Shown one piece after another: positions 1,522 to 60,248 of a DNA stretch of 64,000 nt (its first letter is position 1; each line of letters starts with the position of its first letter). Location: the NCBI RefSeq assembly GCF_003018255.1, contig NZ_CP027440.1; one strand, given 5' to 3'. The notes under the pieces are model-generated. The model saw only the letters and a program-made list of their open reading frames with translations, was not told the origin of the DNA and made no database searches. The position numbers were made by a program, and so were the translations under genes. This DNA comes from Escherichia coli (GTDB lineage Bacteria; Pseudomonadota; Gammaproteobacteria; Enterobacterales; Enterobacteriaceae).

Positions 1522-1577
1522 GTCAATTTGACTATAGATATTGTCATATCGACCATTTTATTGATAGTCATTTTGAC
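1522..1577. promoter_or_regulatory. Three NorR enhancer sites (GT-N7-AC inverted repeats) in the norR-norV intergenic region
   Basis: GTCAATTTGAC (1522-1532), GTCATATCGAC (1543-1553), GTCATTTTGAC (1567-1577) read directly from sequence. Confidence 0.85.
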
Positions 1578-4265: not shown

Positions 4266-4284
4266 GCGAGCTACAGTGCCCCAA

Positions 4285-4466
<182 letters not shown>

Positions 4467-4488
4467 TGGTGTCCAAATGCAACACGCT

Positions 4489-7421: not shown

Positions 7422-7569
7422 CAAATTCTCCAGCAATGACAGTTAATGCGCCGATACATTCACAAATCATGCCAGTTTTTAATTTACTGTTATTTAAAGA
7501 AATTAAATTCTGTAATGCAGGAAAAACGATGTCATCGACACTAGTGACGATGACATGTGATGACAATGT

Positions 7570-8580
7570 TTATCGCGAAAGAGCAATGAGGGAGTCGCGG
7601 CGGATCAGTTTTCCGCTGAAGGTTTTCGGCGGTGTGTAAGCACCACCATCGAGCATAAATATCAGCCGCCCAATTATTTCCTGAATCATCTCAGTCACCG
7701 GAATTTTTACGCTGGAGAGCGCCGGAACGGTGTAGGGGGCAATAGCGATATCATCGAATCCGATAACTGACACCTGCTCTGGCACCGCTACGCCGCGCTC
7801 GTGTAACGCTTTCATCGCACCTATCGCCATATCGTCGTTACTGGCAACTAACGCGCTAAATTTAGCCCCACGTTCGAGCAACATTTCTACCCCTTCGGCC
7901 CCGCTGGCAGGCGTCCATTTACCGTTAGCGATAAGTTTTTCATTGAGCGCAATACCATGCTGCGCCAGCGCGTCTTTATACCCGGCAAGACGTTCAACGC
8001 TGGTGGGGGAATCCATCGAACCGGTAAGGAAAGCAATCTCCTGATGTCCGGCGTTTATCAACTCTGCCACGGCGTTAAAGCTGGTCTGTTTATGATCGCA
8101 CCAGACGCTATGGCTGCTGTTTTTGCGCAGGCGGCGATTAAGCACCATTATCGGCTGACTGTGTGCGTCAATGATGTCATCAATCTCATCCACGCTTAAA
8201 AAACGCGGGTAAATCATAATGGCGTCGCAGCGCAAATCCAGCAGATACTGAATCGCCTGGCGCTCTTCTTCGGCGCTGTGTTTACCATCTGCCAATAGCA
8301 ACTGTCGCCCTTTCTCTTCCGCCATTCGCGCGGCATGAAAGAGTAATTCACTAAAATAAATGCCGTGGTAAAGCGTGTTGGTCACGACCAGCCCCAGCGT
8401 CTGAGTACTCTTCGCCGACAGATTGCGCGCCAGCAAGTTTGGACGGTAACCGCTCTCTTCTACCGCCTGAAACACGCGATCTTTAGTCTCCTGGCTGACG
8501 TAGCCATTACCTGAAAGCACGCGGGAAACGGTCGCTTTTGAAACCCCGGCGCGCTTCGCCACTTCCAGCATCGTCGTCAT
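7570..8580 (-). CDS. ascG: LacI/GalR-family repressor of the asc operon
   Basis: ORF track frame 358 aa; start placed at MTTMLEVAKRAGVSKATVSRV (HTH) giving 336 aa; divergent from ascF. Confidence 0.92.
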   Translation of the reverse strand: MTTMLEVAKRAGVSKATVSRVLSGNGYVSQETKDRVFQAVEESGYRPNLLARNLSAKSTQTLGLVVTNTLYHGIYFSELLFHAARMAEEKGRQLLLADGKHSAEEERQAIQYLLDLRCDAIMIYPRFLSVDEIDDIIDAHSQPIMVLNRRLRKNSSHSVWCDHKQTSFNAVAELINAGHQEIAFLTGSMDSPTSVERLAGYKDALAQHGIALNEKLIANGKWTPASGAEGVEMLLERGAKFSALVASNDDMAIGAMKALHERGVAVPEQVSVIGFDDIAIAPYTVPALSSVKIPVTEMIQEIIGRLIFMLDGGAYTPPKTFSGKLIRRDSLIALSR

Positions 8581-16729: not shown

Positions 16730-18556
16730 TCAGGCTCCTCGTGAAACAATAATCACCACCAGTACCGCCAGTTCAACCAGCGCCATCCGGCGGAACAGCA
16801 ACGCACTCCCCTCGCACTGCCAGCCCGGCACCAGCGACACCGGATTCAGCCATTTGCGTAGTTTCAGCACCGGCGCAAACGCCTGTTTCACCGGCATGGC
16901 AAAACCGTGAGCGGTAATCACCATTGATTTTTCATGATCGTAGCCGCACACCCAGGCCGCGCCGCGGGAACGCGACGGCAAACGATCGCCTTTGCAAATC
17001 GCCATAATGATGAATGGCAGCAGCGGGCAGGCAATCAGCAGCAACGTGATCATGGGTTGAGAAACGGTGGTGTTAGCAGGCTCCAGCGGCAGAGGTACAG
17101 CAGCAGAGAGCATCGGCAGTAGCCACGGCGCAGCAACACCGCCAATTACGCAGCAAATCGCCAGTGCCACTACGCTTACGCTCATCAGGAGCGGCGCACA
17201 GGTGGCGTTTTCGGCCTCTTTGGTACGCGGCGCGCCGAGGAAAGTAACGCCATAAACTTTCGCCATACACATCACCGCCAGCGCACCGGTAATTGCCAGC
17301 CCCACGGCGAGCAGCGGCCCGAGAAGACGGGCAACAAACGCGCCACTATTGCTCAGTTTGAAGAAGGATTGATAGATAACCCATTCCCCGGCAAACCCGT
17401 TCAGCGGCGGCAGCGCAGCCATTGCCATCAGCCCGACTAACATGGCGATGGAGATAACCGGCATTTTCTTGCCAATACCACCGAGTTTTTCGATATCGCG
17501 ATGACCGGTACGGAACCAGACGCTCCCCGCACCAAGGAACAGTACGCTCTTGAACAGGCTATGGTTAAGCAGATGGTACAGACCACCAACCAGACCAAGG
17601 GCAATCAGCGCCGGTTGTTCGAGCGCGATACCCGTTACGCCAGCGCCCAGCCCCAGCAGGATGATGCCGATATTTTCCAGGGTGTGGTAAGCCAGCAGAC
17701 GTTGGATATTATGTTCCATCAACGCATACAGACCGCCGACGAATGCGGTGATCATGCCGAGTACCAGCAGTGCGATCCCCCACCACAGCGGTGCATTACC
17801 GCCCAGTAGTGACAGAGTTAAAATGCCCAGCAGGCCAATTTTCATGACTACCGTGGAAAACAGCGCGGCAGCTGGCGCAGAGGCGTTGGCATGTGCCTGT
17901 GGCACCCAGCCGTGCAGCGGAATAATCCCGGCCAGCAGGCCAAAGCCAATCACACCGAGCAGCCAGATATCGGAACCGAGCGGCAGCTGTTGCATACGCA
18001 TATCCAGCAGGCGCAGATCCAGCGTGCCGTAACGCTGCCACAGCAGCCAGCAGGCAATCGCCAGCAGCAGAGTGCCAAGACGCCCCAGCGCAAACCACAG
18101 TTTGCCCTCTTTGCTGTTGCTGGTGAGGAACACCGCACACAGGGCCATGATTTCGGCCATTACCACGAACATGCCGAGGTTGCTGGCGATGACGGCGCAG
18201 ACGGCGGCAGCCATCAACATATTGATCTGCAAGCCGTTGCACTTCACCTGCGCGTGGCGATGCCAGTCAATGTTGTAGAGGCTGACAAACAGACCGCATA
18301 GGCCGAGCGTAATCAGCCAAATCGCATTAAGCGGAGAGATTTGCACATCGTAGCTTACCAGCGACAGCGCACCGCTCACGCCAACCGCGCCAGTCAGCAC
18401 TGTGAAGCCCGCGGCTGCCGTATACAGGCTACCAACCGCGCCGCCAATTCCGGCTATCCAGCCGCTTAGCGCCTTTTGAAAAGAAAAGAGAAATGCCAGA
18501 ACAGCGGCGGCGACAAACCACGCCACGCCGCTATTGATCAGGGAAATTGCGCTCAT
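16730..18556 (-). CDS. hycC: Formate hydrogenlyase membrane subunit (NuoL/antiporter-like)
   Basis: ORF track 608 aa, highly hydrophobic, operon position. Confidence 0.94.
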   Translation of the reverse strand: MSAISLINSGVAWFVAAAVLAFLFSFQKALSGWIAGIGGAVGSLYTAAAGFTVLTGAVGVSGALSLVSYDVQISPLNAIWLITLGLCGLFVSLYNIDWHRHAQVKCNGLQINMLMAAAVCAVIASNLGMFVVMAEIMALCAVFLTSNSKEGKLWFALGRLGTLLLAIACWLLWQRYGTLDLRLLDMRMQQLPLGSDIWLLGVIGFGLLAGIIPLHGWVPQAHANASAPAAALFSTVVMKIGLLGILTLSLLGGNAPLWWGIALLVLGMITAFVGGLYALMEHNIQRLLAYHTLENIGIILLGLGAGVTGIALEQPALIALGLVGGLYHLLNHSLFKSVLFLGAGSVWFRTGHRDIEKLGGIGKKMPVISIAMLVGLMAMAALPPLNGFAGEWVIYQSFFKLSNSGAFVARLLGPLLAVGLAITGALAVMCMAKVYGVTFLGAPRTKEAENATCAPLLMSVSVVALAICCVIGGVAAPWLLPMLSAAVPLPLEPANTTVSQPMITLLLIACPLLPFIIMAICKGDRLPSRSRGAAWVCGYDHEKSMVITAHGFAMPVKQAFAPVLKLRKWLNPVSLVPGWQCEGSALLFRRMALVELAVLVVIIVSRGA

Positions 18557-19164
18557 TTAGCCTCTCCACTTTGAGCCTGCTGAAACAAGGTGAGATCGCC
18601 AAAATCCGTGTTAAAAGTCAGCTCACGCTTACGTTTGCTGACGCGGGCGATATCGGTGTTATCCACCAGATGCAGGGCTTTAGTCGGGCACATCCGCACG
18701 CAGGCCGGACCTTGTTCATCAAAGCTACAAAGGTCACATTTGACGGCGATCGCGCGAATACCTGGCACCCAGTCAAGCAATGTGCTGACACGCGCCGGAG
18801 CAGGCGGTGCCGGTGGCGCTTTCGGGGTATTGGCGTTTGCCGGAATATCCAGCGGACGGCTGCCGGAAAATTCAATTGCGCCAAACGGGCAGGCGATGCC
18901 GCACAGTTTGCAGCTTACGCACAGACTTTCATTCAACTGCACGGCCCCATCAACGCGGGTGATGGCGTTAACCGGGCAAACCACCGCACAGGGCGCATCT
19001 TCACAGTGGTGACAGAGCTGCGGCGCAGATTCTTTTTCATTGAGCATCACTCGCAGGCGCGGCATTGATTGCAGGCCGTGCTGGCGATGCGTCTCTGAAC
19101 AGGCGGCCTCACAGGTGTGGCAGCCGATACAGAGCGTGGAGTCAGCAATTACAAAACGATTCAC
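18553..19164 (-). CDS. hycB: Formate hydrogenlyase 4Fe-4S ferredoxin subunit
   Basis: ORF track 203 aa; four CxxCxxCxxxCP ferredoxin motifs. Confidence 0.95.
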   Translation of the reverse strand: MNRFVIADSTLCIGCHTCEAACSETHRQHGLQSMPRLRVMLNEKESAPQLCHHCEDAPCAVVCPVNAITRVDGAVQLNESLCVSCKLCGIACPFGAIEFSGSRPLDIPANANTPKAPPAPPAPARVSTLLDWVPGIRAIAVKCDLCSFDEQGPACVRMCPTKALHLVDNTDIARVSKRKRELTFNTDFGDLTLFQQAQSGEAK

Positions 19165-19183
19165 CAGGCATTCCTCAGGTGAT

Positions 19184-19247
19184 TGTCATTTTTGACGAAA
19201 ACATGCCGATGAAATGTCATTTTCGACACTCATCGACACGCCCATCC
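19184..19247. promoter_or_regulatory. FhlA-type upstream activating motifs in the hycA-hycB intergenic region
   Basis: TGTCATTTTTGACG and TGTCATTTTCGACACTCATCGACACG; same motif family as the site at 19861-19888. Confidence 0.65.
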
Positions 19248-19288
19248 CCAAACAGGCGTAACGCCTGCAAAACGGGCAAAGCCTCAGC

Positions 19289-19750
19289 TCATGCTGCCGG
19301 GCTTTGTCCCTTTACCAGTTGGCTTAAATTCACCGGCACATTGTTTTCAATGGCGGTGTATAAGCTGTCGTAAACGCCAGCGATTTTTTCGAGATAGTGT
19401 TCCAGAACCTGTTCGCGATCGCGGATGTTGACCTTGCCATCAATCATGCCGTCAATGCTCAGTTGCGCCTGCGCAATCCGCTGTTTGTCTTCACCATCTT
19501 TTGTTTCGACGTAATACTCGATGGTGTGGCTGTTAAAGCCATCCGCCAGGGTGACGTAAATACGAAAATGTTCAAAAAGGACGAAACAGAGTTCTTTGTC
19601 CGGCGCGCAGCTCATGGCGTGATGCAGGCGCGCTTTCGATAACGTGATTCCCTGAACCAGCGAATTGCAGTAGATGTGCCACTGGTCCTGTAGGCGACGA
19701 TGCCGCTGTGCGATGTAATCGGCTTTCTCGCTTATTTCCCAAATAGTCAT
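19289..19750 (-). CDS. hycA: Formate hydrogenlyase regulatory protein HycA
   Basis: ORF track 153 aa (MTIWEISEKADYIAQRHRRLQDQWH...); first gene of hyc operon, divergent from hypA. Confidence 0.94.
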   Translation of the reverse strand: MTIWEISEKADYIAQRHRRLQDQWHIYCNSLVQGITLSKARLHHAMSCAPDKELCFVLFEHFRIYVTLADGFNSHTIEYYVETKDGEDKQRIAQAQLSIDGMIDGKVNIRDREQVLEHYLEKIAGVYDSLYTAIENNVPVNLSQLVKGQSPAA

Positions 19751-19786
19751 TGTCAGGTTACCCGTTTAACAGAGATGCCAGCTTTA

Positions 19787-19802
19787 AGCATTTTTTGTGC
19801 CA
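19787..19802 (-). promoter_or_regulatory. sigma54 promoter of the hyc operon
   Basis: Reverse complement reads TTGGCACAAAAAATGCT (GG-N10-GC) about 40 nt upstream of hycA start. Confidence 0.8.
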
Positions 19803-19860
19803 ACTTTTAATTTATTGTTATTAAAGCGATTTTTAAGCTAAAGATGAATTTCGTCGCCGT

Positions 19861-19888
19861 GTCGACGTGTCATTTCGACATCATCGAC
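19861..19888. promoter_or_regulatory. FhlA-type upstream activating sequence between hycA and hypA
   Basis: GTCGACGTGTCATTTCGACATCATCGAC, repeated TCGAC half-sites. Confidence 0.7.
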
Positions 19889-19915
19889 ATTATTCACCGC
19901 AGGGATAATCAACAC

Positions 19916-19931
19916 TGGCACAATTATTGCT
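19916..19931 (+). promoter_or_regulatory. sigma54 promoter of the hyp operon
   Basis: CTGGCACAATTATTGCTT (GG-N10-GC) about 30 nt upstream of hypA ATG. Confidence 0.8.
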
Positions 19932-19961
19932 TGTAGCTGGCAATAGTTAATGGGAGGCGAT

Positions 19962-20312
19962 ATGCACGAAATAACCCTCTGCCAACGAGCACTGGAATTG
20001 ATCGAACAGCAGGCCGCAAAACACGGCGCAAAACGCGTAACTGGGGTCTGGCTCAAAATTGGCGCATTTTCTTGTGTCGAAACCAGCTCTCTTGCCTTTT
20101 GTTTTGATCTGGTTTGCCGCGGCAGCGTGGCGGAAGGTTGTAAACTGCACCTCGAAGAACAAGAGGCCGAATGCTGGTGTGAAACATGCCAACAGTATGT
20201 GACGCTACTGACCCAGCGCGTCCGCCGCTGTCCACAGTGTCATGGTGACATGCTACAGATTGTGGCAGACGACGGTTTACAGATTCGGCGGATAGAAATA
20301 GACCAGGAGTGA
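19962..20312 (+). CDS. hypA: Hydrogenase nickel-insertion protein HypA
   Basis: ORF track frame 120 aa; start placed at MHEITLCQRALE (116 aa); MHE N-terminal nickel site and two CxxC zinc motifs. Confidence 0.95.
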   Translation: MHEITLCQRALELIEQQAAKHGAKRVTGVWLKIGAFSCVETSSLAFCFDLVCRGSVAEGCKLHLEEQEAECWCETCQQYVTLLTQRVRRCPQCHGDMLQIVADDGLQIRRIEIDQE

Positions 20313-20315
20313 GCG

Positions 20316-21188
20316 ATGTGTACAACATGCGGTTGCGGTGAAGGCAACCTCTATATTGAGGGTGATGAACATAACCCTCATTCCGCGTTTCGTAGCGCGC
20401 CATTTGCCCCGGCGGCACGCCCGAAGATGAAAATCACCGGCATTAAAGCGCCTGAATTTACCCCCAGCCAGACTGAAGAAGGCGACCTGCATTACGGTCA
20501 TGGCGAAGCGGGCACTCACGCGCCGGGCATGAGCCAGCGTCGGATGCTGGAAGTCGAAATTGACGTGCTGGACAAAAATAACCGTCTGGCTGAACGCAAC
20601 CGCGCGCGCTTTGCTGCCCGCAAGCAACTGGTGCTCAACCTGGTTTCCAGCCCTGGTTCCGGTAAAACCACCCTGCTGACGGAAACTTTAATGCGCCTGA
20701 AAGACAGCGTTCCGTGCGCGGTTATTGAAGGTGACCAGCAAACCGTGAACGATGCCGCACGCATTCGCGCTACCGGCACCCCAGCGATTCAGGTGAACAC
20801 CGGTAAAGGCTGCCATCTTGACGCACAGATGATTGCCGACGCCGCGCCGCGCCTGCCACTGGACGATAACGGTATTCTGTTTATCGAAAACGTCGGTAAC
20901 CTCGTTTGCCCGGCCAGCTTCGATCTCGGTGAAAAACACAAAGTGGCGGTGCTTTCCGTTACCGAAGGTGAAGACAAACCGCTGAAATATCCGCACATGT
21001 TTGCCGCCGCCTCGCTGATGCTGCTCAACAAAGTTGACTTGCTGCCGTATCTCAATTTCGACGTTGAGAAGTGCATCGCCTGCGCCCGTGAAGTCAATCC
21101 AGAAATTGAAATCATCCTTATTTCCGCCACCAGCGGCGAAGGGATGGACCAGTGGCTGAACTGGCTGGAGACACAGCGATGTGCATAG
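20316..21188 (+). CDS. hypB: Hydrogenase maturation GTPase / nickel metallochaperone HypB
   Basis: ORF track 290 aa; N-terminal [10 protein letters not shown] metal-binding motif, P-loop GSGKTTLL. Confidence 0.96.
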
Positions 21189-23652: not shown

Positions 23653-25731
23653 ATGTCATATACACCGATGAGTGATCTCGGACAGCAAGGGTTGTTCGAC
23701 ATCACTCGGACACTATTGCAGCAGCCCGATCTGGCCTCGCTGTGTGAGGCTCTTTCGCAACTGGTAAAGCGTTCTGCGCTCGCCGACAACGCGGCTATTG
23801 TGTTGTGGCAAGCGCAGACTCAACGTGCGTCTTATTACGCATCGCGTGAAAAAGACACCCCCATTAAATATGAAGACGAAACTGTTCTGGCACACGGTCC
23901 GGTACGCAGCATTTTGTCGCGCCCTGATACGCTGCATTGCAGTTACGAAGAATTTTGTGAAACCTGGCCGCAGCTGGCCACAGGTGGGCTATACCCCAAA
24001 TTTGGTCACTATTGCCTGATGCCACTGGCGGCGGAAGGGCATATTTTTGGTGGCTGTGAATTTATTCGTCATGACGATCGCCCCTGGAGCGAAAAAGAGT
24101 TCAATCGTCTGCAAACATTTACGCAGATCGTTTCTGTCGTCACCGAACAAATCCAGAGCCGCGTCGTTAACAATGTCGACTATGAGTTGTTATGCCGGGA
24201 ACGCGATAACTTCCGCATCCTGGTCGCCATCACTAACGCGGTGCTTTCCCGCCTGGATATGGACGAACTGGTCAGCGAAGTCGCCAAAGAAATCCACTAC
24301 TACTTCGACATTGACGATATCAGCATCGTCTTACGCAGCCACCGTAAAAACAAACTCAACATCTACTCCACTCACTATCTTGATAAACAGCATCCCGCTC
24401 ACGAACAGAGCGAAGTCGATGAAGCCGGAACCCTCACCGAACGCGTCTTCAAAAGTAAAGAGATGCTGTTGATTAATCTCCACGAGCGGGACGATTTAGC
24501 CCCCTATGAACGCATGTTGTTCAACACCTGGGGCAACCAGATTCAAACCTTGTGCCTGTTACCGCTGATGTCTGGCGACACCATGCTGGGCGTGCTAAAA
24601 CTGGCGCAATGCGAAGAGAAAGTCTTTACCACTACCAATCTGAGCTTACTGCGCCAGATTGCCGAACGTGTGGCAATCGCTGTCGATAACGCCCTCGCCT
24701 ATCAGGAAATTCATCGTCTGAAAGAACGGCTGGTTGATGAAAACCTCGCCCTGACCGAGCAGCTCAACAATGTTGATAGTGAATTTGGCGAGATTATTGG
24801 CCGCAGCGAAGCCATGTACAGCGTACTTAAACAAGTGGAAATGGTGGCGCAAAGTGACAGTACCGTTCTGATCCTCGGTGAAACTGGTACAGGTAAAGAG
24901 CTGATTGCCCGCGCGATCCATAATCTCAGTGGGCGTAATAATCGCCGTATGGTCAAAATGAACTGCGCGGCGATGCCTGCCGGATTGCTGGAAAGCGATC
25001 TATTTGGTCATGAGCGTGGGGCTTTTACCGGTGCCAGCGCTCAGCGCATTGGTCGTTTTGAACTGGCGGATAAAAGCTCACTATTCCTCGATGAAGTGGG
25101 CGATATGCCGCTGGAGTTACAGCCGAAGTTGCTGCGTGTATTACAGGAACAGGAGTTTGAACGTCTCGGCAGCAACAAAATCATTCAGACGGACGTACGT
25201 TTAATTGCCGCGACTAACCGCGATCTGAAAAAAATGGTCGCCGACCGAGAGTTCCGTAGCGATCTCTATTACCGTCTGAACGTATTCCCGATCCACCTGC
25301 CGCCACTACGCGAGCGTCCGGAAGATATTCCGCTGCTGGCGAAAGCCTTTACCTTCAAAATTGCCCGTCGTCTGGGGCGCAATATCGACAGCATTCCTGC
25401 CGAGACGCTGCGCATCCTGAGCAACATGGAATGGCCGGGCAACGTGCGTGAGCTGGAAAACGTCATTGAGCGCGCGGTATTGCTAACACGCGGCAACGTG
25501 CTGCAGCTGTCATTGCCAGATATTGCTTTACCAGAACCTGAAACGCCGCCTGCCGCAACGGTTGTCGCCCAGGAGGGCGAAGATGAATATCAGTTGATTG
25601 TTCGCGTGCTGAAAGAAACAAACGGCGTGGTTGCCGGGCCTAAAGGCGCTGCGCAACGTCTGGGGCTGAAACGCACGACTCTGCTGTCACGGATGAAGCG
25701 ACTGGGAATTGATAAATCGGCATTGATTTAA
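23653..25731 (+). CDS. fhlA: Formate hydrogenlyase transcriptional activator FhlA (sigma54-dependent)
   Basis: ORF track frame 704 aa; start placed at MSYTPMSDLGQQG (692 aa); GAF-type N-terminal region, AAA+ GETGTGKE and GAFTGA motifs, C-terminal HTH. Confidence 0.95.
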   Translation: MSYTPMSDLGQQGLFDITRTLLQQPDLASLCEALSQLVKRSALADNAAIVLWQAQTQRASYYASREKDTPIKYEDETVLAHGPVRSILSRPDTLHCSYEEFCETWPQLATGGLYPKFGHYCLMPLAAEGHIFGGCEFIRHDDRPWSEKEFNRLQTFTQIVSVVTEQIQSRVVNNVDYELLCRERDNFRILVAITNAVLSRLDMDELVSEVAKEIHYYFDIDDISIVLRSHRKNKLNIYSTHYLDKQHPAHEQSEVDEAGTLTERVFKSKEMLLINLHERDDLAPYERMLFNTWGNQIQTLCLLPLMSGDTMLGVLKLAQCEEKVFTTTNLSLLRQIAERVAIAVDNALAYQEIHRLKERLVDENLALTEQLNNVDSEFGEIIGRSEAMYSVLKQVEMVAQSDSTVLILGETGTGKELIARAIHNLSGRNNRRMVKMNCAAMPAGLLESDLFGHERGAFTGASAQRIGRFELADKSSLFLDEVGDMPLELQPKLLRVLQEQEFERLGSNKIIQTDVRLIAATNRDLKKMVADREFRSDLYYRLNVFPIHLPPLRERPEDIPLLAKAFTFKIARRLGRNIDSIPAETLRILSNMEWPGNVRELENVIERAVLLTRGNVLQLSLPDIALPEPETPPAATVVAQEGEDEYQLIVRVLKETNGVVAGPKGAAQRLGLKRTTLLSRMKRLGIDKSALI

Positions 25732-25775: not shown

Positions 25776-26204
25776 ATGGCAGTTTCAGCAAGAAATCAAT
25801 TAACCGGAACAGTTAGCACAGTAGCAATGGGCGCTGTGAATGATGAAGTAGAACTGACGCTGGCAGGTGGTGCAAAGCTGGTGGCAATTGTGACTCACAG
25901 CAGCCAGCAAGCGCTGGGTCTGGCGAAAGGGAAAGAAGCGATTGCCCTGATTAAAGCCCCGTGGGTCACGCTGGCAACGGAAGACTGTGGACTGAAATTC
26001 TCTGCTCGCAACCAGTTTGCTGGCAGCGTGTCGACAATCACCGAAGGCGCAGTGAACGCCACTGTCCATATCAAAACGGATGCGGGTTTTGAAATTGTGG
26101 CAGTGGTAACAAATGAAAGTCAGGATGAAATGAAACTCACCACTGGCTCGCGCGTTATTGCATTGATCAAAGCATCAGCCATCCTGATTGCCACCAAAGC
26201 GTAA
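25776..26204 (+). CDS. Small di-Mop (tandem TOBE-domain) molybdate/tungstate-binding protein (molbindin)
   Basis: ORF track frame 25737..26204; start placed at ATG 25776 preceded by AAAGGAGG; two tandem ~70-aa repeats each beginning SARNQ(L/F)xG..S and ending ALIKA (MAVSARNQLTGTVS...ALIKAPWV / FSARNQFAGSVS...ALIKASAI). Confidence 0.75.
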   Translation: MAVSARNQLTGTVSTVAMGAVNDEVELTLAGGAKLVAIVTHSSQQALGLAKGKEAIALIKAPWVTLATEDCGLKFSARNQFAGSVSTITEGAVNATVHIKTDAGFEIVAVVTNESQDEMKLTTGSRVIALIKASAILIATKA

Positions 26205-36290: not shown

Positions 36291-36520
36291 TTACCTTCCG
36301 CCAGCAGCGGCGGGATGCTCGGCACCATCGGCGCGTCATCAATATCTTTCTGCGTCATGCGGAACGCTTCGGGATAATGTTCGCGGCTGGTGCGGCGTAG
36401 CGGTTCGGTATCGCGCCAGGTATAGAGGCAATGCTGGCACTGGTAGACCATCCAGACATCTTTTACCGGCGATTTCGCCATCACTTCAATCTGTTCATCG
36501 GCACAACGTGGACAAATCAT
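36284..36520 (-). CDS. ecdD: Small subunit D of hydroxyarylic-acid (4-hydroxybenzoate/vanillate-type) decarboxylase
   Basis: ORF track 78 aa with zinc-ribbon-like Cys pairs (CPRCADEQ ... CQHC); immediately downstream of UbiD-like gene in same operon. Confidence 0.72.
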   Translation of the reverse strand: MICPRCADEQIEVMAKSPVKDVWMVYQCQHCLYTWRDTEPLRRTSREHYPEAFRMTQKDIDDAPMVPSIPPLLAEGKR

Positions 36521-36530
36521 CTTGTTCTCC

Positions 36531-37958
36531 TTATTGACGTGCGGCCAGCATAGCGGTCAGTTTTTCAGCCCAGGCTTTGGTTTCCGGTAAGTCCACCACC
36601 GGCTGGCTGTAGTGACCACGGTTGTCCGGGGCGACAGGCGTGGTGGCGTCGATAATCAGCTTGTCGGTGATCCCCGCCGGACTTGAGCCAGGGTCGAGTT
36701 CCAGCACGGACATATTCGGCAACTGTACCAAATCCCCTGCCGGGTTCACTTTCGAGGAGAGCGCCCACATCACCTGCGGCAGGTTGAACGGATCAACGTC
36801 TTCATCGACCATAATCACCATCTTCACGTAGCCCAGACCGTGCGGCGTGGTCATCGCACGCAGGCCCACCGCGCGGGCAAAGCCGCCGTAGCGTTTTTTG
36901 GTGGAGATAATCGCCAGCAGGCCGTGGGTGTACATGGCGTTTACCGCCTGCACTTCCGGGAACTCGGCTTTCAGTTGTTGATACAGCGGCACGCAGGTGG
37001 CAGGCCCCATCAGGTAGTCGATTTCGGTCCACGGCATACCAAGATAGAGCGATTCGAAAATCGGTTTGGTACGGTAAGAGACTTTATCGATACGCACCAC
37101 GGTCATGTTACGCCCGCCGGAGTAGTGGCCGGTAAACTCACCGAACGGCCCTTCAATCTCACGTTTACGACTTTCGATAACCCCTTCGAGGATCACTTCC
37201 GAGCCCCACGGCACATCAAAACCGGTCAGCGGGGCGGTGGCGATCGGGTACGGGCTTTCGCGCAGCGCGCCTGCCATTTCGTACTCAGACTGATCGTATT
37301 TCAGCGGCGTGGCCCCCATTAGGGTGATGATCGGATCGTTACCGAGTGTGATGGCAATCGGCAGATCTTCACCGCGCTCTTCTGCTTTATGCAGATGCAG
37401 GGCGATATCGTGCATCGGCACCGGTTGCAGGCCGAGCTTACGCTTGCCCTTCACTTCCATGCGGTAGATGCCGACGTTCTGCTTGCCGAAGTTATCCGGG
37501 TCGAGCGGATCGCGGGAAACCACGCACGCTTTATCGAGATAGAAACCGCCATCACCGTCGTTTAAACGAAACAGCGGCAGAATATTGAACAGGTTGATCT
37601 CGTCGCCATCGACGGTGTTCTGCGCCCAGGCTGGATTGGCGCGGCGCTCCGGGGCAATGGGGAAGTTATCCCAGCGGCGGATAAACTCATCAATCTGTTT
37701 TTTAACCGGGGTGTTTGGCGGCAGGCCGAGGGAAATCGCGTGGTTCTGCCAGGAACCGATGGTGTTCATTGCCACGCGGGCATCGATAAAGCCGCGAATA
37801 TTATCAAACCAAAGCGCGGGCGCGCCGTCGCCGATACGCCCGGTGGCGTTGGCTGCGGCTGCCAGATCCGGTTCCGCGTTCACCTCTTCGCTGATTTTCA
37901 GTAACTGGCCGTGGTCATCAAGCGCCTGTAAAAAGCTGCGTAAATCATCAAATGCCAT
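36531..37958 (-). CDS. ecdC: UbiD-family (prenylated-FMN-dependent) decarboxylase, subunit C of hydroxyarylic acid decarboxylase
   Basis: ORF track 475 aa; UbiD-family length and layout; between UbiX-like gene and small D subunit. Confidence 0.88.
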   Translation of the reverse strand: MAFDDLRSFLQALDDHGQLLKISEEVNAEPDLAAAANATGRIGDGAPALWFDNIRGFIDARVAMNTIGSWQNHAISLGLPPNTPVKKQIDEFIRRWDNFPIAPERRANPAWAQNTVDGDEINLFNILPLFRLNDGDGGFYLDKACVVSRDPLDPDNFGKQNVGIYRMEVKGKRKLGLQPVPMHDIALHLHKAEERGEDLPIAITLGNDPIITLMGATPLKYDQSEYEMAGALRESPYPIATAPLTGFDVPWGSEVILEGVIESRKREIEGPFGEFTGHYSGGRNMTVVRIDKVSYRTKPIFESLYLGMPWTEIDYLMGPATCVPLYQQLKAEFPEVQAVNAMYTHGLLAIISTKKRYGGFARAVGLRAMTTPHGLGYVKMVIMVDEDVDPFNLPQVMWALSSKVNPAGDLVQLPNMSVLELDPGSSPAGITDKLIIDATTPVAPDNRGHYSQPVVDLPETKAWAEKLTAMLAARQ

Positions 37959-38551
37959 TATTCATTCTCCTGAGAAAAATTCCGGGCCTGCGGCAATCCT
38001 TGCCAGCGCCTGGCGTGAGGATGTTCGAGGCCAAATTGATCCAGCACGCGGGCTACCACGTGGTGGACAATGTCATCTACCGTTTCGGGATGGTTATAAA
38101 AGGCAGGCATCGGCGGCACCATCGCCACGCCCATGCGCGAAAGTGCGAGCATATTTTCGAGATGGATTGTGCTAAGCGGCATTTCACGCGGCACCAGCAC
38201 CAGTTTGCGGCCTTCTTTGAGCACGACGTCCGCCGCGCGCCCCACCAGGCCATCGGCGTAACCAGCGCGGATACCGGCGAGCGTTTTCATACTGCATGGA
38301 ATAACGATCATGCCGTCGGTACGAAAGGAGCCGGAAGAGATAGTCGCCGCCTGATCCGCCGGGTTATGGCTGAAGTCTGCGAGGGCGGCAACATCGCGAG
38401 CGCTGTAAGGCGTTTCCAGTTCAATCGTGATTTTCGCCCACTTCGACATCACTAGATGAGTCTCGACATTCGGCATCTCCCGCAGCGCTTGCAGTAATGC
38501 CACACCAAGAGGCGCACCGGTAGCCCCTGTCATCCCGACGATCAGTTTCAT
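37958..38551 (-). CDS. ecdB: UbiX-like flavin prenyltransferase (Pad1-type), subunit B
   Basis: ORF track 197 aa; MKLIVGMTGATGA flavoprotein N-terminus typical of UbiX/Pad1. Confidence 0.9.
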   Translation of the reverse strand: MKLIVGMTGATGAPLGVALLQALREMPNVETHLVMSKWAKITIELETPYSARDVAALADFSHNPADQAATISSGSFRTDGMIVIPCSMKTLAGIRAGYADGLVGRAADVVLKEGRKLVLVPREMPLSTIHLENMLALSRMGVAMVPPMPAFYNHPETVDDIVHHVVARVLDQFGLEHPHARRWQGLPQARNFSQENE

Positions 38552-38697
38552 TGCTTACTCTCTTAATTGTTCGTATACGAACGTTATTATTAACATACTC
38601 CTTCATTTCCACAGCGGCAAGGATTGAAAAGTAACAACATCTTCTTCGTCACTGAAAAACCGCTATGATAGCGACAGAGAATTAGCCCGGAGTTTAC

Positions 38698-39105
38698 ATG
38701 GCGTTACGAAATAAAGCGTTCCATCAGTTACGACAGCTTTTTCAGCAGCATACAGCTCGCTGGCAGCACGAGTTACCTGACCTGACCAAACCACAGTACG
38801 CGGTGATGCGCGCCATTGCTGATAAGCCTGGTATCGAACAGGTGGCACTGATAGAAGCAGCAGTCAGCACCAAAGCAACGCTGGCAGAAATGTTGGCAAG
38901 AATGGAAAATCGTGGCTTAGTCAGACGTGAACATGACGCCGCTGACAAGCGGCGACGCTTTGTCTGGCTGACTGCCGAAGGAGAAAAGGTACTTGCTGCG
39001 GCGATCCCCATTGGTGACAGTGTGGATGAGGAATTTTTGGGGCGTTTGAGTGCAGAAGAGCAGGAGCTGTTTATGCAGTTGGTGCGCAAGATGATGAGCA
39101 AATAG
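38698..39105 (+). CDS. MarR/SlyA-family transcriptional regulator
   Basis: ORF track 135 aa; winged-helix region (LTKPQYAVMRAIADKPGIEQVAL ... RREHDAADKRR); divergent from the decarboxylase operon. Confidence 0.82.
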   Translation: MALRNKAFHQLRQLFQQHTARWQHELPDLTKPQYAVMRAIADKPGIEQVALIEAAVSTKATLAEMLARMENRGLVRREHDAADKRRRFVWLTAEGEKVLAAAIPIGDSVDEEFLGRLSAEEQELFMQLVRKMMSK

Positions 39106-50365: not shown

Positions 50366-51188
50366 CGGTTTATCCCCGCTGACGCGGGGAACACACATGA
50401 ATGTCGGTTCAGACCGTGTTTTTACCCGGTTTATCCCCGCTGGCGCGGGGAACACGAGGCTGAACAGGGAGGGGGCTACCGGCACAGCGGTTTATCCCCG
50501 CTGGCGCGGGGAACACTTGCCAACCGCCAAAGACTGGAAAACCAATCTCGGTTTATCCCCGCTGGCGCGGGGAACACTTAAACTTGCCGCCGGTATGGGG
50601 GGAACGGGCCGGTTTATCCCCGCTGGCGCGGGGAACTCGTTTCGCGTCGATCGCCTTTTGCGCAATCGCGCCGGTTTATCCCCGCTGGCGCGGGGAACTC
50701 TTTCTTTTTCCATTTAAGTTATTCTAATACCCCGGTTTATCCCCGCTGGCGCGGGGAACTCGATCATGCCTTACTAAAAGGTCCGCTGACGGGCGGTTTA
50801 TCCCCGCTGGCGCGGGGAACTCATCATGACAAAAAGTTACGCTCATCTATTCAACGGTTTATCCCCGCTGGCGCGGGGAACTCTCCATATGTTGCCCCGC
50901 TCGGGACAACACCCCCGGTTTATCCCCGCTGGCGCGGGGAACTCTTAGCGCCGACAAAAGAAGTTGCGGATAACAGCGGTTTATCCCCGCTGGCGCGGGG
51001 AACTCGCCCGTTCCCAGGGAGTGCGGCTCCACCCCCGCGGTTTATCCCCGCTGACGCGGGGAACTCTTCAGTTTCACACTCGGTAATGCCGTTATTTACG
51101 GTTTATCCCCGCTGGCGCGGGGAACTCCTCGGGGCCAGCCTCCCCCATTAACCCGGCACCGGTTTATCCCCGCTGGCGCGGGGAACTC
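50366..51188 (-). CRISPR. Type I-E CRISPR array, 14 direct repeats of 29 bp (plus-strand form CGGTTTATCCCCGCTGGCGCGGGGAACTC) separated by 13 spacers of 32-33 bp; transcribed on the minus strand from the leader at 51189-51293
   Basis: Repeats located by eye at 50366, 50427, 50488, 50549, 50610, 50672, 50733, 50794, 50855, 50916, 50977, 51038, 51099, 51160 (61-62 bp period); repeat is reverse complement of the I-E repeat GAGTTCCCCGCGCCAGCGGGGATAAACCG; adjacent cas2-cas1. Confidence 0.97.
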
Positions 51189-51293
51189 TCTAAAAGTATA
51201 CATTTGTTCTTAAAGCATTTTTTCCCATAAAAACAACCCACCAACCTTAATGTAACATTTCCTTATTATTAAAGATCAGCTAATTCTTTGTTT
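51189..51293 (-). promoter_or_regulatory. CRISPR leader (AT-rich) between last repeat and cas2 stop
   Basis: About 105 bp AT-rich sequence (..AAAGTATACATTTGTTCTTAAAGCATTTTTTCCCATAAAAACAACC..) directly abutting repeat 14, located at the cas2-proximal end. Confidence 0.85.
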
Positions 51294-52497
<1,204 letters not shown>

Positions 52498-52512
52498 TTT
52501 ATTACACCTCAA

Positions 52513-53112
52513 TCACAGTGGAGCCAAAGATAGCAAGCCACATCCCATCGATTTAGCTGGCCCAATACCTTGCTGTACAAGATCTATTAACGCTGGCGCG
52601 TCGTTGATGGTGATCACCCCTTCAAAGCAAACCGTTTGGATCTTTCCACTTTTACCATCACCAGAAAAATACTGTGGCCGTTCCGATATGGGATGCACAT
52701 CTTCAACGCGCGCCGCATTGCCCAATTTACGTTGCAACCACGCGATTTGTTCTGCTTCTTTTATTAACGGAACCCGACAGCGTTTAATATTCCCTTTACT
52801 GTCCAGGCGCTTTTGATTGTCGAGAATAGTTTTGATCGGATTTGCCCGAAGCCGAAAATAGAGTGGAACACCAACCTGAAGTTGAAATTCAACCTGTTTA
52901 GTTTTAATGACTGTCGCAACGGCAGTAGAAACAGGCATTTGCGCTGACTGCAATAAAACATGACAGCCTTCTGGTGTGTTTCGCTTCTCAACATGAAAAA
53001 GAAAATCACGAGCAGCATCCGGTCTGTTTGGAAATAAATGCCATAATCCCTGGTGAAGTTGGTAAAGATCCCTGCTCCAGGCCCTGGCAATGATGACTTT
53101 ACTGAGATACAT
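52513..53112 (-). CDS. cas6e: Cas6e (CasE) crRNA endoribonuclease
   Basis: ORF track 199 aa (MYLSKVIIARAWSRDLYQLH...). Confidence 0.95.
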   Translation of the reverse strand: MYLSKVIIARAWSRDLYQLHQGLWHLFPNRPDAARDFLFHVEKRNTPEGCHVLLQSAQMPVSTAVATVIKTKQVEFQLQVGVPLYFRLRANPIKTILDNQKRLDSKGNIKRCRVPLIKEAEQIAWLQRKLGNAARVEDVHPISERPQYFSGDGKSGKIQTVCFEGVITINDAPALIDLVQQGIGPAKSMGCGLLSLAPL

Positions 53113-53773
53113 CCATACCTCCTTTAATCACATACCATTCTCGGGAAGCAAATTGTCGAGGTAAGGTGATCATCGGTTCGTCGCGCACCGTAAATTTTAA
53201 ATGATGCCCGTCAACTGATTCCTCACTATAAATATCGCCGCCAACGGGCTCATAATTTAATAGCGCCTTCTGAGGATCCGACGCCTGACATGTCCCGAGA
53301 AAAAGCGGTTGTGTTAGCGGACAACTCCTCCGCCCCAGATACGGTGTATACCGAGGCTTTAATACTGCTTTTTCAAGTTCTGACATAACCATCGTTGCCT
53401 GTGGTGTTAACCAGATAGCGACGGTAAAGGAGGCATCACATAAATATTCGCGCCATGTTTGAATCGTTTCATGACTTTTCAAACCACGGTAATCTTCTCG
53501 CGCTCCAAGGACTGTATGGTAATCACGCAACCCCGTTACAGACACACGACGATCGTCAAGAATGAGTTCATCGCAGCGCACTGCAAATTGCACACTCTCT
53601 GATAACGCCTGTAATGAAGAAGTATCATCACGTTGGATCCCAAGACAAGCCCCGAGTAGCCCTAATAACCCGCTTCGGGTCGGAAATCTTCCGGTAGGTC
53701 GCGTTCCTTCAAAGGTCGGCTGCCCCCAGGCTTGCATTGGCCCAGCAAGCCGCAAGATCAAATAAGATCTCAT
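53099..53773 (-). CDS. cas5: Cas5e (CasD) Cascade subunit
   Basis: ORF track frame 226 aa; start placed at MRSYLILRLAGPMQAWG (224 aa). Confidence 0.94.
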   Translation of the reverse strand: MRSYLILRLAGPMQAWGQPTFEGTRPTGRFPTRSGLLGLLGACLGIQRDDTSSLQALSESVQFAVRCDELILDDRRVSVTGLRDYHTVLGAREDYRGLKSHETIQTWREYLCDASFTVAIWLTPQATMVMSELEKAVLKPRYTPYLGRRSCPLTQPLFLGTCQASDPQKALLNYEPVGGDIYSEESVDGHHLKFTVRDEPMITLPRQFASREWYVIKGGMDVSQ

Positions 53774-53775
53774 GT

Positions 53776-54867
53776 TCACGCCTCGCCATTATTACGAACC
53801 CAGGATTTTAACTGTTCTAAAGTAGGCATTTGTTTAACTTGAGCAGTAATTGGGTCTACATCAGATAAGCTGAATTGCGCAGCAGCTCCGTTCAGACCAT
53901 ATCCATTGGCAACGCGATCCCAATATTGATTAAACGCCTGTATAGACGGTTGCAAAAAGCCATCTTTCGCTTTAACCGCTTTTTCAAAAGCATTTGCCAT
54001 AGAAAGTGGCATATCGGAGAAATTAACCATTACCATATCCGCAGGGTTAAAAGCGGCATAAGTACGCTGTTTTGCTCCAGGGACCTCTGTTGCCAGCATA
54101 TGAACAACATGGGTTGCAATTTCCAGAGCCTGCTCCCTGGAGGCACCACCTAAATTTTCCTGAAGTTGAGCGAGGTTAATGTTGGCATAACGATAAAAAA
54201 CACCCGATGAAAATTCCTGAGTTCCCAGATGTGCAGAACCTTGTTCCTGTAAATCATCTACAGCGGTGAACCAGTCAATATCAGAATCAACCTGATGAGT
54301 AGTGATCGCATGCGCAATGGACATTGCACCATCAACTTTTCCCAACTCACTCATCATGCCGCTGGTTGCCATTCTTCCACTAAGCGCAATATCAACACCC
54401 TGCTGTAAATTCACACGTATGGCGGCAATATCTTCCTTAAGAACTTTGAGCAGCTTTTTATCATCCAGATTATCAGCCTCTGCTTTTGCAACCTGCTCAC
54501 AGAACCAGGCTATTTCTCCCACAACCCAGGGAGTAACCGCATCGGCAGAAATCTTTTCGGCTTCATCAACTAATTTACCGGAGAGCAGCGCTAATGTCTT
54601 ATCGATGATTTTTTGGTCAAAACGTTCACCAAGTTTTTGCCGAAGAACATCACGTAATTGTGCAAGATGAATTGTTCTGAGACTGGATTCACCAATATTT
54701 TGTGCGTAATAATCACTTTTACGCATCGCATGTTTAAGGCTTTGACTTGAAATTCTTACTCGTCTTTTCCCGCCGAAAATAGCGTCTTTCTGCATGTTCA
54801 TATCGTCGCGGTTCAGACATGAAGGGCTGTGAGAGATCAGAACATGAATATTGATAAAGTTAGACAT
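53776..54867 (-). CDS. cas7: Cas7e (CasC) Cascade backbone subunit
   Basis: ORF track 363 aa ([22 protein letters not shown]...). Confidence 0.95.
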
Positions 54868-54879
54868 AGAAAGGTTTCC

Positions 54880-55362
54880 TTACGCATTTTTGTTTGTGGT
54901 CAATACAAAATCTTCCAGAAGTTGCTGGCGTTCGCGCTTTCCCCACCAGGTCAACATCCTGGCCATTAATGGCCAGTCAAGTACGGGTTCGGCGTGAGTA
55001 AGTAATCGACGTAACTGGACCATATCGGCTGTTCTGTCAGCCCGAATTAATTGAAAGATACGGCGCTCGTTAATTCTTCCACTATTGGCTAAAGCTCTTC
55101 CCAACGAGATACCTGTTGTTTGCTCCGTTTTTTTGTCCTGATGTCGGATGACATTCTTTCCTGCGCTCAGGCAAAACACCATGCGCAAAAGAGCCTGCTG
55201 GTGACGTGGGTTTTCCCAACCAAAAGATTGCACCAGCCTATAAAACGCAGGGATATCGCGTAATTCATCAGGTTCTGAAACACGTCTAATTTGCGCACAT
55301 GCTCCATTATCCAGTTGTTGCCAGGCTCGATATAAAGCCATTGCATCAATTTCATCAGCCAT
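54880..55362 (-). CDS. cse2: Cse2 (CasB) Cascade small subunit
   Basis: ORF track 160 aa. Confidence 0.94.
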   Translation of the reverse strand: MADEIDAMALYRAWQQLDNGACAQIRRVSEPDELRDIPAFYRLVQSFGWENPRHQQALLRMVFCLSAGKNVIRHQDKKTEQTTGISLGRALANSGRINERRIFQLIRADRTADMVQLRRLLTHAEPVLDWPLMARMLTWWGKRERQQLLEDFVLTTNKNA

Positions 55363-56863: not shown

Positions 56864-57277
56864 TTGTTCTCCTTCATATGCTCCGACATTTCTCCTGCAT
56901 TTCTATGCGTCGGCACACTTCCGTTATCGGTAAAAACAAAGAAAAAATACGGCGTAATTAATTCAATAATCACATTCACTGCAAAAATATATTCATTGGT
57001 TTAATACAATTAACCTATACATATATTAAGATGTGTTGAATTGTTTAAAGACAATAATGCATGCATTTCAAATCTGCAAGTTATTCGTTTTATTATCAAA
57101 GAAATTTTTAGTTATAATAATTACCATAAATTTTATTACATAAAATATTCATACTGTGAATATAAAATCTCATACCGGGAAATTAAAAGAAGATGTACAT
57201 TGTGCACTTTCCCTACTTAAGTAGGGATAAACCGTTATTGGTCTTGTTATCGTCATTGATACCAATCATTCCCGAAG
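56864..57277 (-). promoter_or_regulatory. AT-rich cas3-cse1 intergenic region expected to carry the Cascade operon promoter (Pcas) and H-NS/LeuO control sites
   Basis: 414 bp strongly AT-rich non-coding stretch directly upstream of cse1; regulatory assignment is from established E. coli knowledge, exact promoter positions not determined here. Confidence 0.6.
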
Positions 57278-59944: not shown

Positions 59945-60248
59945 TAATAGCCTCCCTGTTTTTTTAGTATTATCGATGATATCAGTGGACTATTTTTCGA
60001 TGCTGCTCATAAATATCGAATTACAGTGATATACACATGTCTTGCCTCCCTGCAAAGAAGAGACTAACATTCGAATTGCTTAGGTTCGAACGCAGGCCTC
60101 AGGTTGATAGAAATATCGCCTGGGGCTTTTGTCCATCTGGAACCTCGCGAATGCTTAACGCCAGACAGCCTCAAGCACCCAACTCCATTCTATACCTGTT
60201 AATTCTCCCTGCGATGTTCACCTTTAAATGCCGGAATGCTGCTCGCAA

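What the first reader, a model, noticed from the sequence alone, without database searches (positions are those of the whole stretch)
19165..19961. Shared FhlA-type motif in two intergenic regions with back-to-back sigma54 promoters
The motif TGTCATTT(T/C)CGACA(C/T)(T)CATCGACA occurs in the hycA-hycB spacer (19215-19240) and in the hycA-hypA divergent region (19869-19888). Clear -24/-12 sigma54 elements point leftward (hyc, 19787-19802) and rightward (hyp, 19916-19931). This is the known FhlA/sigma54 architecture, readable directly from the sequence, and it gives an internally consistent picture of the FHL regulon in this strain.
Basis: partly seen in the sequence, partly recalled or inferred. 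Interest (0 to 1): 0.3.

Follow-up and report, generated by a model that had tools for sequence, protein, structure and literature searches.

The report
Known FhlA/sigma-54 control region of hyc-hyp
This is the well-studied E. coli switch that turns on the hydrogen-producing formate hydrogenlyase genes: two divergent sigma-54 promoters plus two clusters of binding sites for the activator FhlA. It is real, conserved and ordinary.

Summary
A 22-24 nt motif occurs at 19215-19238 (hycA-hycB spacer) and 19868-19889 (hycA-hypA spacer). Perfect -24/-12 sigma-54 elements lie at 19787-19802 (-) and 19916-19931 (+).

The window is E. coli. The regulatory DNA is identical to K-12 apart from one SNP (19827) outside all elements, so the K-12 literature applies. 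Both sigma-54 motifs match published ChIP-seq motifs for hycA and hypA.

In 77 hycB-hycA-hypA loci (this window plus 76 from many enterobacterial genera), the motifs and promoters are conserved while the DNA between them is not. The central enhancer keeps a helically phased distance to the hyc promoter even where the hyp promoter has moved away. The unit TGTCAT(T)nCGWCA recurs only at the hydN enhancer. fhlA is intact.

Verdict: already known, interpretation supported, low interest. The assignment of the hycA-hycB enhancer to the hyp promoter rests on my memory of primary papers that I could not read here.

The parts
18553..19164 (-). hycB coding sequence (GTG start at 19164-19162); first structural gene downstream of the hycA-hycB spacer
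19184..19197 (+). UAS-A element A1: palindromic FhlA-type site TGTCATTTTTGACG (core GTCA-TTTT-TGAC). Centre is about -751 from the predicted hyp start and about +585 from the hyc start.
   Evidence: (D5). The block 19185-19200 is >=95% conserved in 52 distinct sequences. It sits 21 nt from the hycB start in 37 loci. The 63-mer containing it is exact in 5362 of 5426 E. coli records.
19215..19238 (+). It starts 31 nt (three helical turns) after A1.
   Evidence: Conserved. The A1-to-A2 spacing is 31 nt in 30 loci.
19289..19750 (-). hycA coding sequence (FhlA antagonist), 153 aa, intact
19787..19802 (-). P_hyc sigma-54 -24/-12 element TGGCACAAAAAATGCT. Predicted start is about 19776, 26 nt before the hycA ATG.
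   Evidence: 0 mismatches. Identical to the ChIP-seq motif for hycA, with distance 26. Present 36-39 nt from the hycA start in most of the 77 loci.
19808..19820 (+). Candidate IHF site TAATTTATTGTTA (one mismatch to YAANNNNTTGATW) in the A/T-rich stretch between P_hyc and UAS-B. Inferred only.
   Evidence: Read. Partial conservation around TTG at 19815-19817. IHF involvement at hyc is from the literature (and my own knowledge).
19860..19889 (+). The core centre at 19874 is about -98 from the hyc start and about -68 from the hyp start.
   Evidence: 19868-19880 is >=80-95% conserved. The cross-genus core is ACRTGTCATTTCGWCA. The distance to the hyc -24 element is quantised at 44, 55-58 or 65-67 nt, and stays at 67 where the hyp promoter is displaced. 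Invariant in divergent E. coli alleles.
19916..19931 (+). P_hyp sigma-54 -24/-12 element TGGCACAATTATTGCT. Predicted start is about 19942, 20 nt before the hypA ATG.
   Evidence: 0 mismatches. Identical to the ChIP-seq motif for hypA, with distance 20. Conserved in all 77 loci.
19962..20312 (+). hypA coding sequence (annotated start MHEITLC; the ORF listing also shows an upstream in-frame ATG at 19950)
23653..25731 (+). fhlA, the cognate activator: 692 aa, no internal stops, C-terminal helix-turn-helix present
7459..7566 (-). Third FhlA/sigma-54 unit in the window. The hydN promoter CTGGCATGATTTGTGAA is at 7459-7475. Its enhancer at 7530-7566 is built from the same unit: TGTCATCGTCAC-TAG-TGTCGATGACA.
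   Evidence: (identical to the ChIP-seq hydN motif),

Best explanation
The 19165-19961 interval is the regulatory core of the E. coli formate regulon. Two divergent sigma-54 promoters fire leftward into hycABCDEFGHI and rightward into hypABCDE(-fhlA), and their -24 elements are 113 nt apart. Sigma-54 holoenzyme binds each promoter as a closed complex that cannot open on its own. The enhancer-binding protein FhlA is encoded at 23653-25731. It is activated by formate and antagonised by HycA. FhlA binds clusters of TGTCAT(T)nCG(A/T)CA-type sites, oligomerises, reaches the promoter by DNA looping and uses ATP hydrolysis to open it. Looping at hyc is probably helped by IHF bending of the A/T-rich spacer. 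There are two enhancers. UAS-B (19860-19889) lies between the promoters, about -98 from the hyc start, and serves hyc. UAS-A (19184-19238, two units three helical turns apart) lies in the hycA-hycB spacer. According to the literature as I recall it, UAS-A serves hyp from about 720-750 bp upstream. Shown here: the sequences, their non-random recurrence, their identity to K-12, their conservation and spacing constraints, and published sigma-54 occupancy. From established knowledge not read here: FhlA footprints, the formate response and the IHF requirement. Inferred: A1 as a genuine FhlA site, and which enhancer serves which promoter.
For: The locus is E. coli hycB-hycA-hypA, and the non-coding DNA is identical to K-12 except at 19827. 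The two perfect -24/-12 elements equal the ChIP-seq motifs for hycA and hypA, and the predicted start-to-gene distances of 26 and 20 match the table. gSELEX shows holoenzyme binding in this spacer. FhlA is named as the activator of hyc, hyp, hydN and fdhF, with consensus CATTTCGTACGAAATG. The half-site CATTTCG(T) is the invariant core of UAS-B across genera. The same unit forms the hydN enhancer palindrome in several genera, which is an independent FhlA target. That unit occurs nowhere else in 64 kb. fdhF in K-12 carries GTCAAAACTGAC, the same GTCA-N4-TGAC layout as A1. Phylogenetic footprint: in about 50 distinct sequences with HycA >=55% identical, only A1, A2, UAS-B, the two promoters and the ribosome-binding sites are conserved. 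Within E. coli, polymorphism avoids the elements. UAS-B is anchored to P_hyc: the distance takes the values 44, 55-58 or 65-67 nt, and stays at 67 in the four loci where P_hyp is 75-190 nt away. fhlA and hycA are intact.
Against: The full 16-mer FhlA consensus has no match at <=3 mismatches in the window, so the sites fit only one half of the idealised palindrome. The primary footprint papers (Schlensog 1994, Leonhartsberger 2000, Hopper 1994, Lutz 1990) were not available. FhlA occupancy of these exact bases, and the assignment of UAS-A to hyp, are therefore not verified here. The spacer inside the unit varies from 0 to 3 T, which is unusual for a rigid dimeric helix-turn-helix site. The core GT-N7-AC is shared with NorR sites, so the core alone does not discriminate between activators. 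The candidate IHF site is a weak match.
Confidence: 0.9

Rival explanations
1. Shared or crossed enhancers. UAS-A does not serve only hyp: it also, or instead, activates P_hyc from about 555-585 bp downstream inside the transcription unit. UAS-B, only about 68 bp from the hyp start, also contributes to hyp. On this view the two clusters work as one bidirectional enhancer system rather than one enhancer per promoter.
For: Enhancer-binding proteins act independently of orientation and position (general knowledge). The UAS-B to P_hyp distance is also quantised, at 46-48 nt in 40 loci and 58-62 in 13. The gap between the two -24 elements changes in steps of about 11 nt: 91, 101-102, 113-115, 125-126. 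This suggests a face-of-helix constraint on both sides. [quoted passage not shown] A1 is the best-conserved non-coding element and is tied to hycB, not to hyp.
Against: In four loci P_hyp sits 75-190 nt from UAS-B while the UAS-B to P_hyc distance is unchanged at 67, so UAS-B is not held to hyp. As I recall Schlensog et al. 1994 (not verified here), the hycA-hycB site is the hyp enhancer. The weak expression has other possible causes, such as the fusion construct or the loss of hycA.
Confidence: 0.2
2. The repeated motif is bound mainly by another sigma-54 activator with a similar site (NorR, core GT-N7-AC, or the FhlA paralogue HyfR), not by FhlA.
For: GTCATTTCGAC in copy 2 satisfies the minimal NorR core GT-N7-AC. 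The three NorR enhancers at 1522-1577 are found by the same GTCA-W3-4-YGAC pattern. HyfR is an FhlA paralogue (my own knowledge).
Against: The longer unit TGTCAT(T)nCGWCA excludes the NorR sites and picks out only hyc, hyp and hydN. The reviews read assign hyc, hyp and hydN to FhlA. NorR needs its three-site arrangement upstream of norV.
Confidence: 0.03
3. The two copies are a chance repeat or a neutral duplication remnant with no function.
For: Short A/T-rich TGTC/GACA words are individually common: TGTCATTT occurs 4 times against 2.8 expected, and CATTTCG 11 times against 15.6.
Against: The composite motif has 0 matches in 100-200 shuffles. It is conserved across genera while its flanks diverge, and it is invariant in E. 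coli genomes while neighbouring DNA is polymorphic.
Confidence: 0.01

Closest known systems
The E. coli K-12 hyc-hyp divergent sigma-54 (NtrA-dependent) promoters and their FhlA upstream activating sequences (Lutz et al. 1990; Schlensog et al. 1994; Leonhartsberger et al. 2000, cited from my own knowledge and)
   Same: It is the same locus. Sequence is identical over all elements, the sigma-54 motifs match ChIP-seq, and the gene order is the same.
   Different: One SNP at 19827 (C here, A in K-12), in the unconserved spacer between P_hyc and UAS-B. This allele of the 19776-19858 segment is exact in only 264 of 5426 E. coli records.
FhlA enhancers of hydN-hypF and fdhF
   Same: A sigma-54 promoter with a cluster of TGTCAT..CGWCA or GTCA-N4-TGAC units about 100 bp upstream.
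   Different: The hydN enhancer is a compact, nearly perfect inverted repeat with no T-run. The hyc and hyp sites are direct repeats with 2-3 T between half-sites. UAS-A is about 720-750 bp from the promoter it is said to serve.
NorR enhancers upstream of norV (GT-N7-AC, three sites plus IHF; PMC2831303)
   Same: A GAF-domain sigma-54 activator, multiple sites with a GTCA-N3-YGAC core, a divergent regulator/target arrangement, and an IHF site between enhancer and promoter. They are present in the same window at 1522-1577.
   Different: A different activator and signal (NO versus formate). NorR sites have an 11-bp fixed spacing and lack the TGTCAT...CGWCA extension.

Membership tests
FhlA-dependent sigma-54 promoter/enhancer unit (formate regulon) | -24 GG / -12 GC sigma-54 promoter element upstream of the regulated operon | tested here: met
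   Two zero-mismatch TGGCAC-N5-WTGCW matches at 19787-19802 (-) and 19916-19931 (+). They are identical to the ChIP-seq motifs and conserved in most of the 77 loci (hyp element in all; hyc element undetected in two).
FhlA-dependent sigma-54 promoter/enhancer unit (formate regulon) | Upstream activating sequence matching the FhlA binding consensus (CATTTCGTACGAAATG, Leonhartsberger 2000 as quoted in PMC4987338) | tested here: inconclusive
   The full 16-mer has no match at <=3 mismatches. The half-site CATTTCG is exact in copy 2, and CATTTCGT is the cross-genus core. The same unit builds the hydN enhancer.
FhlA-dependent sigma-54 promoter/enhancer unit (formate regulon) | Sequence identity with the K-12 DNA on which FhlA binding and formate induction were demonstrated | tested here: met
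   19165-19961 is identical to NC_000913.3 except at 19827.
FhlA-dependent sigma-54 promoter/enhancer unit (formate regulon) | Direct FhlA occupancy of the sites (footprint or ChIP) and formate/FhlA/RpoN-dependent transcription | not testable with these tools
   The primary papers are not held. Only sigma-54 occupancy could be read.
FhlA-dependent sigma-54 promoter/enhancer unit (formate regulon) | Cognate activator FhlA and antagonist HycA encoded and intact | tested here: met
   fhlA is 692 aa with no internal stops and has its helix-turn-helix. hycA is 153 aa.
FhlA-dependent sigma-54 promoter/enhancer unit (formate regulon) | IHF site between the enhancer and the hyc promoter | tested here: inconclusive
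   Only a one-mismatch candidate, TAATTTATTGTTA at 19808-19820, in an A/T-rich and partly conserved stretch.
NorR enhancer | Three GT-N7-AC inverted repeats upstream of a NorR-regulated sigma-54 promoter (norV/hmp/norA) | tested here: not met
   Copy 2 fits GT-N7-AC, but copy 1 and A1 have N8 spacing. The context is hyc/hyp, and the genuine NorR triplet is at 1522-1577.

The most novel reading that the evidence does not exclude
The palindrome A1 (19184-19200) is the most conserved non-coding element of the locus, and it is fixed 21 nt from the hycB start codon inside the hyc transcript. It may do more than act as a remote hyp enhancer. FhlA bound there could also activate P_hyc from downstream. 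Alternatively it could modulate read-through or translation into hycB relative to hycA. The helical-turn quantisation of the P_hyc / UAS-B / P_hyp spacing could then reflect one phase-locked bidirectional enhancer complex rather than two independent units.
Probability: 0.1. Interest if true: 0.35.

Novelty: already known. Interest (0 to 1): 0.08.

Why it matters
It matters little beyond confirmation. The finding re-reads, correctly, a textbook regulatory region characterised in the 1990s. The check adds three things:
- A cleaner parts list: three or four FhlA-type units rather than two.
- A cross-genus footprint showing which bases are constrained.
- Comparative evidence that the central enhancer is spaced relative to the hyc promoter.

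This could help anyone engineering formate hydrogenlyase expression, because replacing hycA and the hycA-hycB spacer removes a conserved enhancer.

Tried and rejected
it matches only copy 1. The cause is indels, not absence of copy 2.
- **Literal 16-mer FhlA consensus:** no hit at <=3 mismatches, so it is an idealised palindrome and not usable as a scanner.
- **Primary FhlA/IHF papers:** not held. Six further literature searches found only reviews and sigma-54 mapping papers. None states which enhancer serves hyp.
- **Sigma-54-like site inside hycA:** TGGCACATCTACTGCA at 19666-19681 (-) encodes W-H-I-Y-C. The Cys codon alternates between TGC and TGT, and His changes to Arg or Gln across genera. 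There is no ChIP-seq entry for it. Rejected as a coding coincidence.
- **Rfam scan of the whole window:** nothing in this region.
- **Sigma-70 and terminator scans of 19000-20400:** at chance level.
- **Inverted repeat across the hycA stop (19265-19318, I3):** not conserved, not pursued.
- **The 4-codon ORF created by ATG inside the palindrome:** dismissed, because the half-site TGTCAT always reads ATGACA on the other strand.

Full report
**What is there.** Reading 18900-20300 and listing ORFs shows hycB (18553-19164, -), hycA (19289-19750, -) and hypA (19962-20312, +). A 901-nt query matches the annotated hycB/hycA/hypA region in 5425 of 5426 complete E. coli genomes at 95-99.9% identity. Gene order around it is norR-norVW-hypF-hydN-ascGFB-hycI..A-hypA..E-fhlA-...-mutS-...-rpoS. 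Against K-12 MG1655 the region is 98.4% identical. The differences are almost all in coding DNA. Between 19165 and 19961 the only non-coding difference is 19827 (C here, A in K-12).

**The observation.**
- Copy 1 is TGTCATTTTCGACACTCATCGACA at 19215-19238. Copy 2 is TGTCATTTCGACATCATCGACA at 19868-19889.
The written consensus is not: as a pattern it matches only copy 1, because copy 2 differs by two single-base deletions.
- The sigma-54 elements are exactly as stated: TGGCACAAAAAATGCT at 19787-19802 (-) and TGGCACAATTATTGCT at 19916-19931 (+). They are the only perfect matches to TGGCAC-N5-WTGCW in 64 kb. One-mismatch matches occur at the chance rate, 6 against 6.9 expected.
One is TGTCATTTTTGACG at 19184-19197, 31 nt before copy 1 (D5). 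The other is TGTCGACG at 19860-19867, directly before copy 2.
- Both enhancers therefore have the same order of parts: a TGTC..GACG element, then TGTCATTT(T)CGACA, then (C)TCATCGACA.

**Agreement with published mapping.** The sigma-54 ChIP-seq study PMC4591121 lists TTGGCACAAAAAATGCT for hycA and CTGGCACAATTATTGCT for hypA. It gives distances to the genes of 26 and 20. These are the window's sequences. The distances equal those from the starts I predict from the -12 GC (19776 and 19942) to the two ATGs. The same table gives the norV and hydN motifs, both found in the window at 1633-1648 and 7459-7475. gSELEX also places holoenzyme in the hycA/hypA spacer. Reviews name FhlA as the activator of hycA-I, hypA-E, hydN-hypF and fdhF, and quote the enhancer consensus CATTTCGTACGAAATG from Leonhartsberger et al. 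2000. That 16-mer has no match at <=3 mismatches in the window. Its half CATTTCG(T) is, however, the heart of copy 2.

**Is the motif 'FhlA-type'?** Other FhlA targets give an independent test.
- K-12 fdhF carries GTCAAAACTGAC upstream of its promoter, the same GTCA-N4-TGAC layout as A1.
- The hydN enhancer in the window (7530-7566) reads TGTCATCGTCAC-TAG-TGTCGATGACA. In Citrobacter and Mangrovibacter it is an almost perfect palindrome of TGTCATCGTCAC.
- The unit TGTCAT-T(0-3)-YGWCR occurs five times in the window: twice at hydN, twice in the hycA-hycB spacer and once in the hycA-hypA spacer. It occurs nowhere else (0.38 expected; 0 of 200 shuffles reach 5). The pattern was formulated after seeing the sites, so the figure is generous.
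- A looser pattern, GTCA-W(3-4)-YGAC, gives 10 hits against 0.69 expected. It also picks up the three NorR enhancers at 1522-1577. The core is therefore shared between the two GAF-domain activators, and only the longer unit is specific.

**Conservation.** A scan of one genome per species with a degenerate hypA N-terminal pattern gave 120 loci. Of these, 76 keep hycB-hycA-hypA.
- Both sigma-54 elements are present in almost all of them. The hyc element is 36-39 nt from the hycA start in most.
- I aligned 51-52 distinct sequences with HycA >=55% identical to the window's. The >=95% conserved blocks are 19185-19200 (A1), most of 19215-19228 and 19233-19239 (copy 1), 19868-19880 (copy 2), the two -24/-12 elements and the ribosome-binding sites. 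The DNA between them is not conserved.
- Within E. coli, the 63-mer spanning UAS-A is exact in 5362 of 5426 records. The 80-mer spanning UAS-B and P_hyp is exact in 4320. The 83-mer spanning P_hyc and the A/T-rich spacer is exact in only 264.
- In the most divergent alleles the changes fall at 19822-19844, 19898-19900 and 19933, never in an element.

**Geometry and mechanism.**
- The UAS-B core centre (19874) is about -98 from the hyc start and about -68 from the hyp start. A1 and A2 (centres 19190.5 and 19221.5) are about -751 and -720 from the hyp start, and +585 and +555 from the hyc start.
- Across genera the gap between the two -24 elements clusters at 91, 101-102, 113-115 and 125-126 nt.
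- The distance from the UAS-B core to the hyc -24 element is 44, 55-58 or 65-67 nt, that is, steps of one helical turn. In the four loci where insertions push the hyp promoter 75-190 nt away it is still 67. UAS-B is thus spaced relative to P_hyc, which fits its role as the hyc enhancer.
- A1 lies 21 nt from the hycB start in 37 loci, and A1-to-A2 is 31 nt in 30 loci, putting them on the same face of the helix.
- The mechanism is the standard one for enhancer-binding proteins. Formate-activated FhlA assembles on the sites, loops to the closed sigma-54 complex and opens it by ATP hydrolysis, while HycA counteracts FhlA.
- That the hycA-hycB enhancer serves hyp is my recollection of Schlensog et al. 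1994 and Lutz et al. 1990. I could not read them here, and no held paper states it. A non-exclusive rival, that the enhancers are shared between the promoters, cannot be excluded from sequence alone.

**Verdict.** fhlA is intact at 692 aa, so the regulon is complete in this strain. This is an already known system, and interest is low.

Noticed in passing
window 1522-1577 and 1633-1648: Three NorR enhancer sites (GTCAATTTGAC, GTCATATCGAC, GTCATTTTGAC) and the norV sigma-54 promoter TGGCACGCAATCTGCA. They share the GTCA-N3-YGAC core with the FhlA-type sites, so a short-core scan cannot tell the two activators apart.
   Followed up: partly
window 7459-7566 (-): The hydN sigma-54 promoter, and an enhancer that starts a few bases after the ascG stop codon (7571-7573). 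The enhancer is a near-palindrome of TGTCATCGTCAC, conserved in Citrobacter and Mangrovibacter loci.
   Followed up: partly
window 19666-19681 (-), inside hycA: A one-mismatch sigma-54-like sequence TGGCACATCTACTGCA pointing toward hycB. It encodes W-H-I-Y-C and shows no conservation beyond the protein constraint, so it is probably a coincidence.
   Followed up: yes
window 19776-19802 and 19916-19942: The two divergent promoters are mirror images beyond the -24/-12 elements (27 nt, 81% complementary). Both have AGCTGGCA at about -7 to +1. This extension is not conserved outside Escherichia.
   Followed up: partly
window 19827 and 19776-19858: The only non-coding difference from K-12 in the region (C versus A). 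This allele of the P_hyc to UAS-B spacer is exact in only 264 of 5426 E. coli records, while the flanking enhancers are nearly invariant.
   Followed up: partly
window 20553-20564 (-), inside hypB: One further GTCAATTTCGAC match to the loose FhlA/NorR-type core, within coding sequence. Not examined for conservation.
   Followed up: no
loci L023, L024, L046, L065, L108, L120 and others (Rahnella, Serratia, Hafnia group): In distant Enterobacterales (HycA about 40% identical) the hyc promoter region reads as a sigma-54 element on both strands (TGGCACGCTTTATGCCA-like palindrome). The enhancer units change to GTCAAAGRTGAC and CGACAWATATGWC. The two-enhancer layout seems to persist with a different site sequence.
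   Followed up: no
window about 25776-26204 and about 36300-39100 (coordinates inferred from L002 minus 901): A TOBE-domain gene directly after fhlA, and hydroxyarylic acid decarboxylase B/C/D genes plus a MarR regulator in the mutS-rpoS variable region. Both are absent from my recollection of the K-12 map at these positions.
   Followed up: no
window 60024-60180 (-): An Rfam sok antitoxin RNA (RF01794, 104 bits) between cas3 and cysH. It indicates a chromosomal hok/sok-type locus.
   Followed up: no
window 50366-51190 and about 51300-59600: A type I-E CRISPR array (about 14 repeats of CGGTTTATCCCCGCTGGCGCGGGGAAC, 61-nt period) next to cas2-cas1-cas6e-cas5-cas7-casB-casA-cas3. The window is about 367 nt longer than the best-matching genome over 40000-64000, possibly because of extra spacers.
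   Followed up: partly
window 4279-4468: A 96-nt unit repeated twice (82% match) between norW and hypF. It looks like REP/BIME-type palindromic repeats.
   Followed up: no
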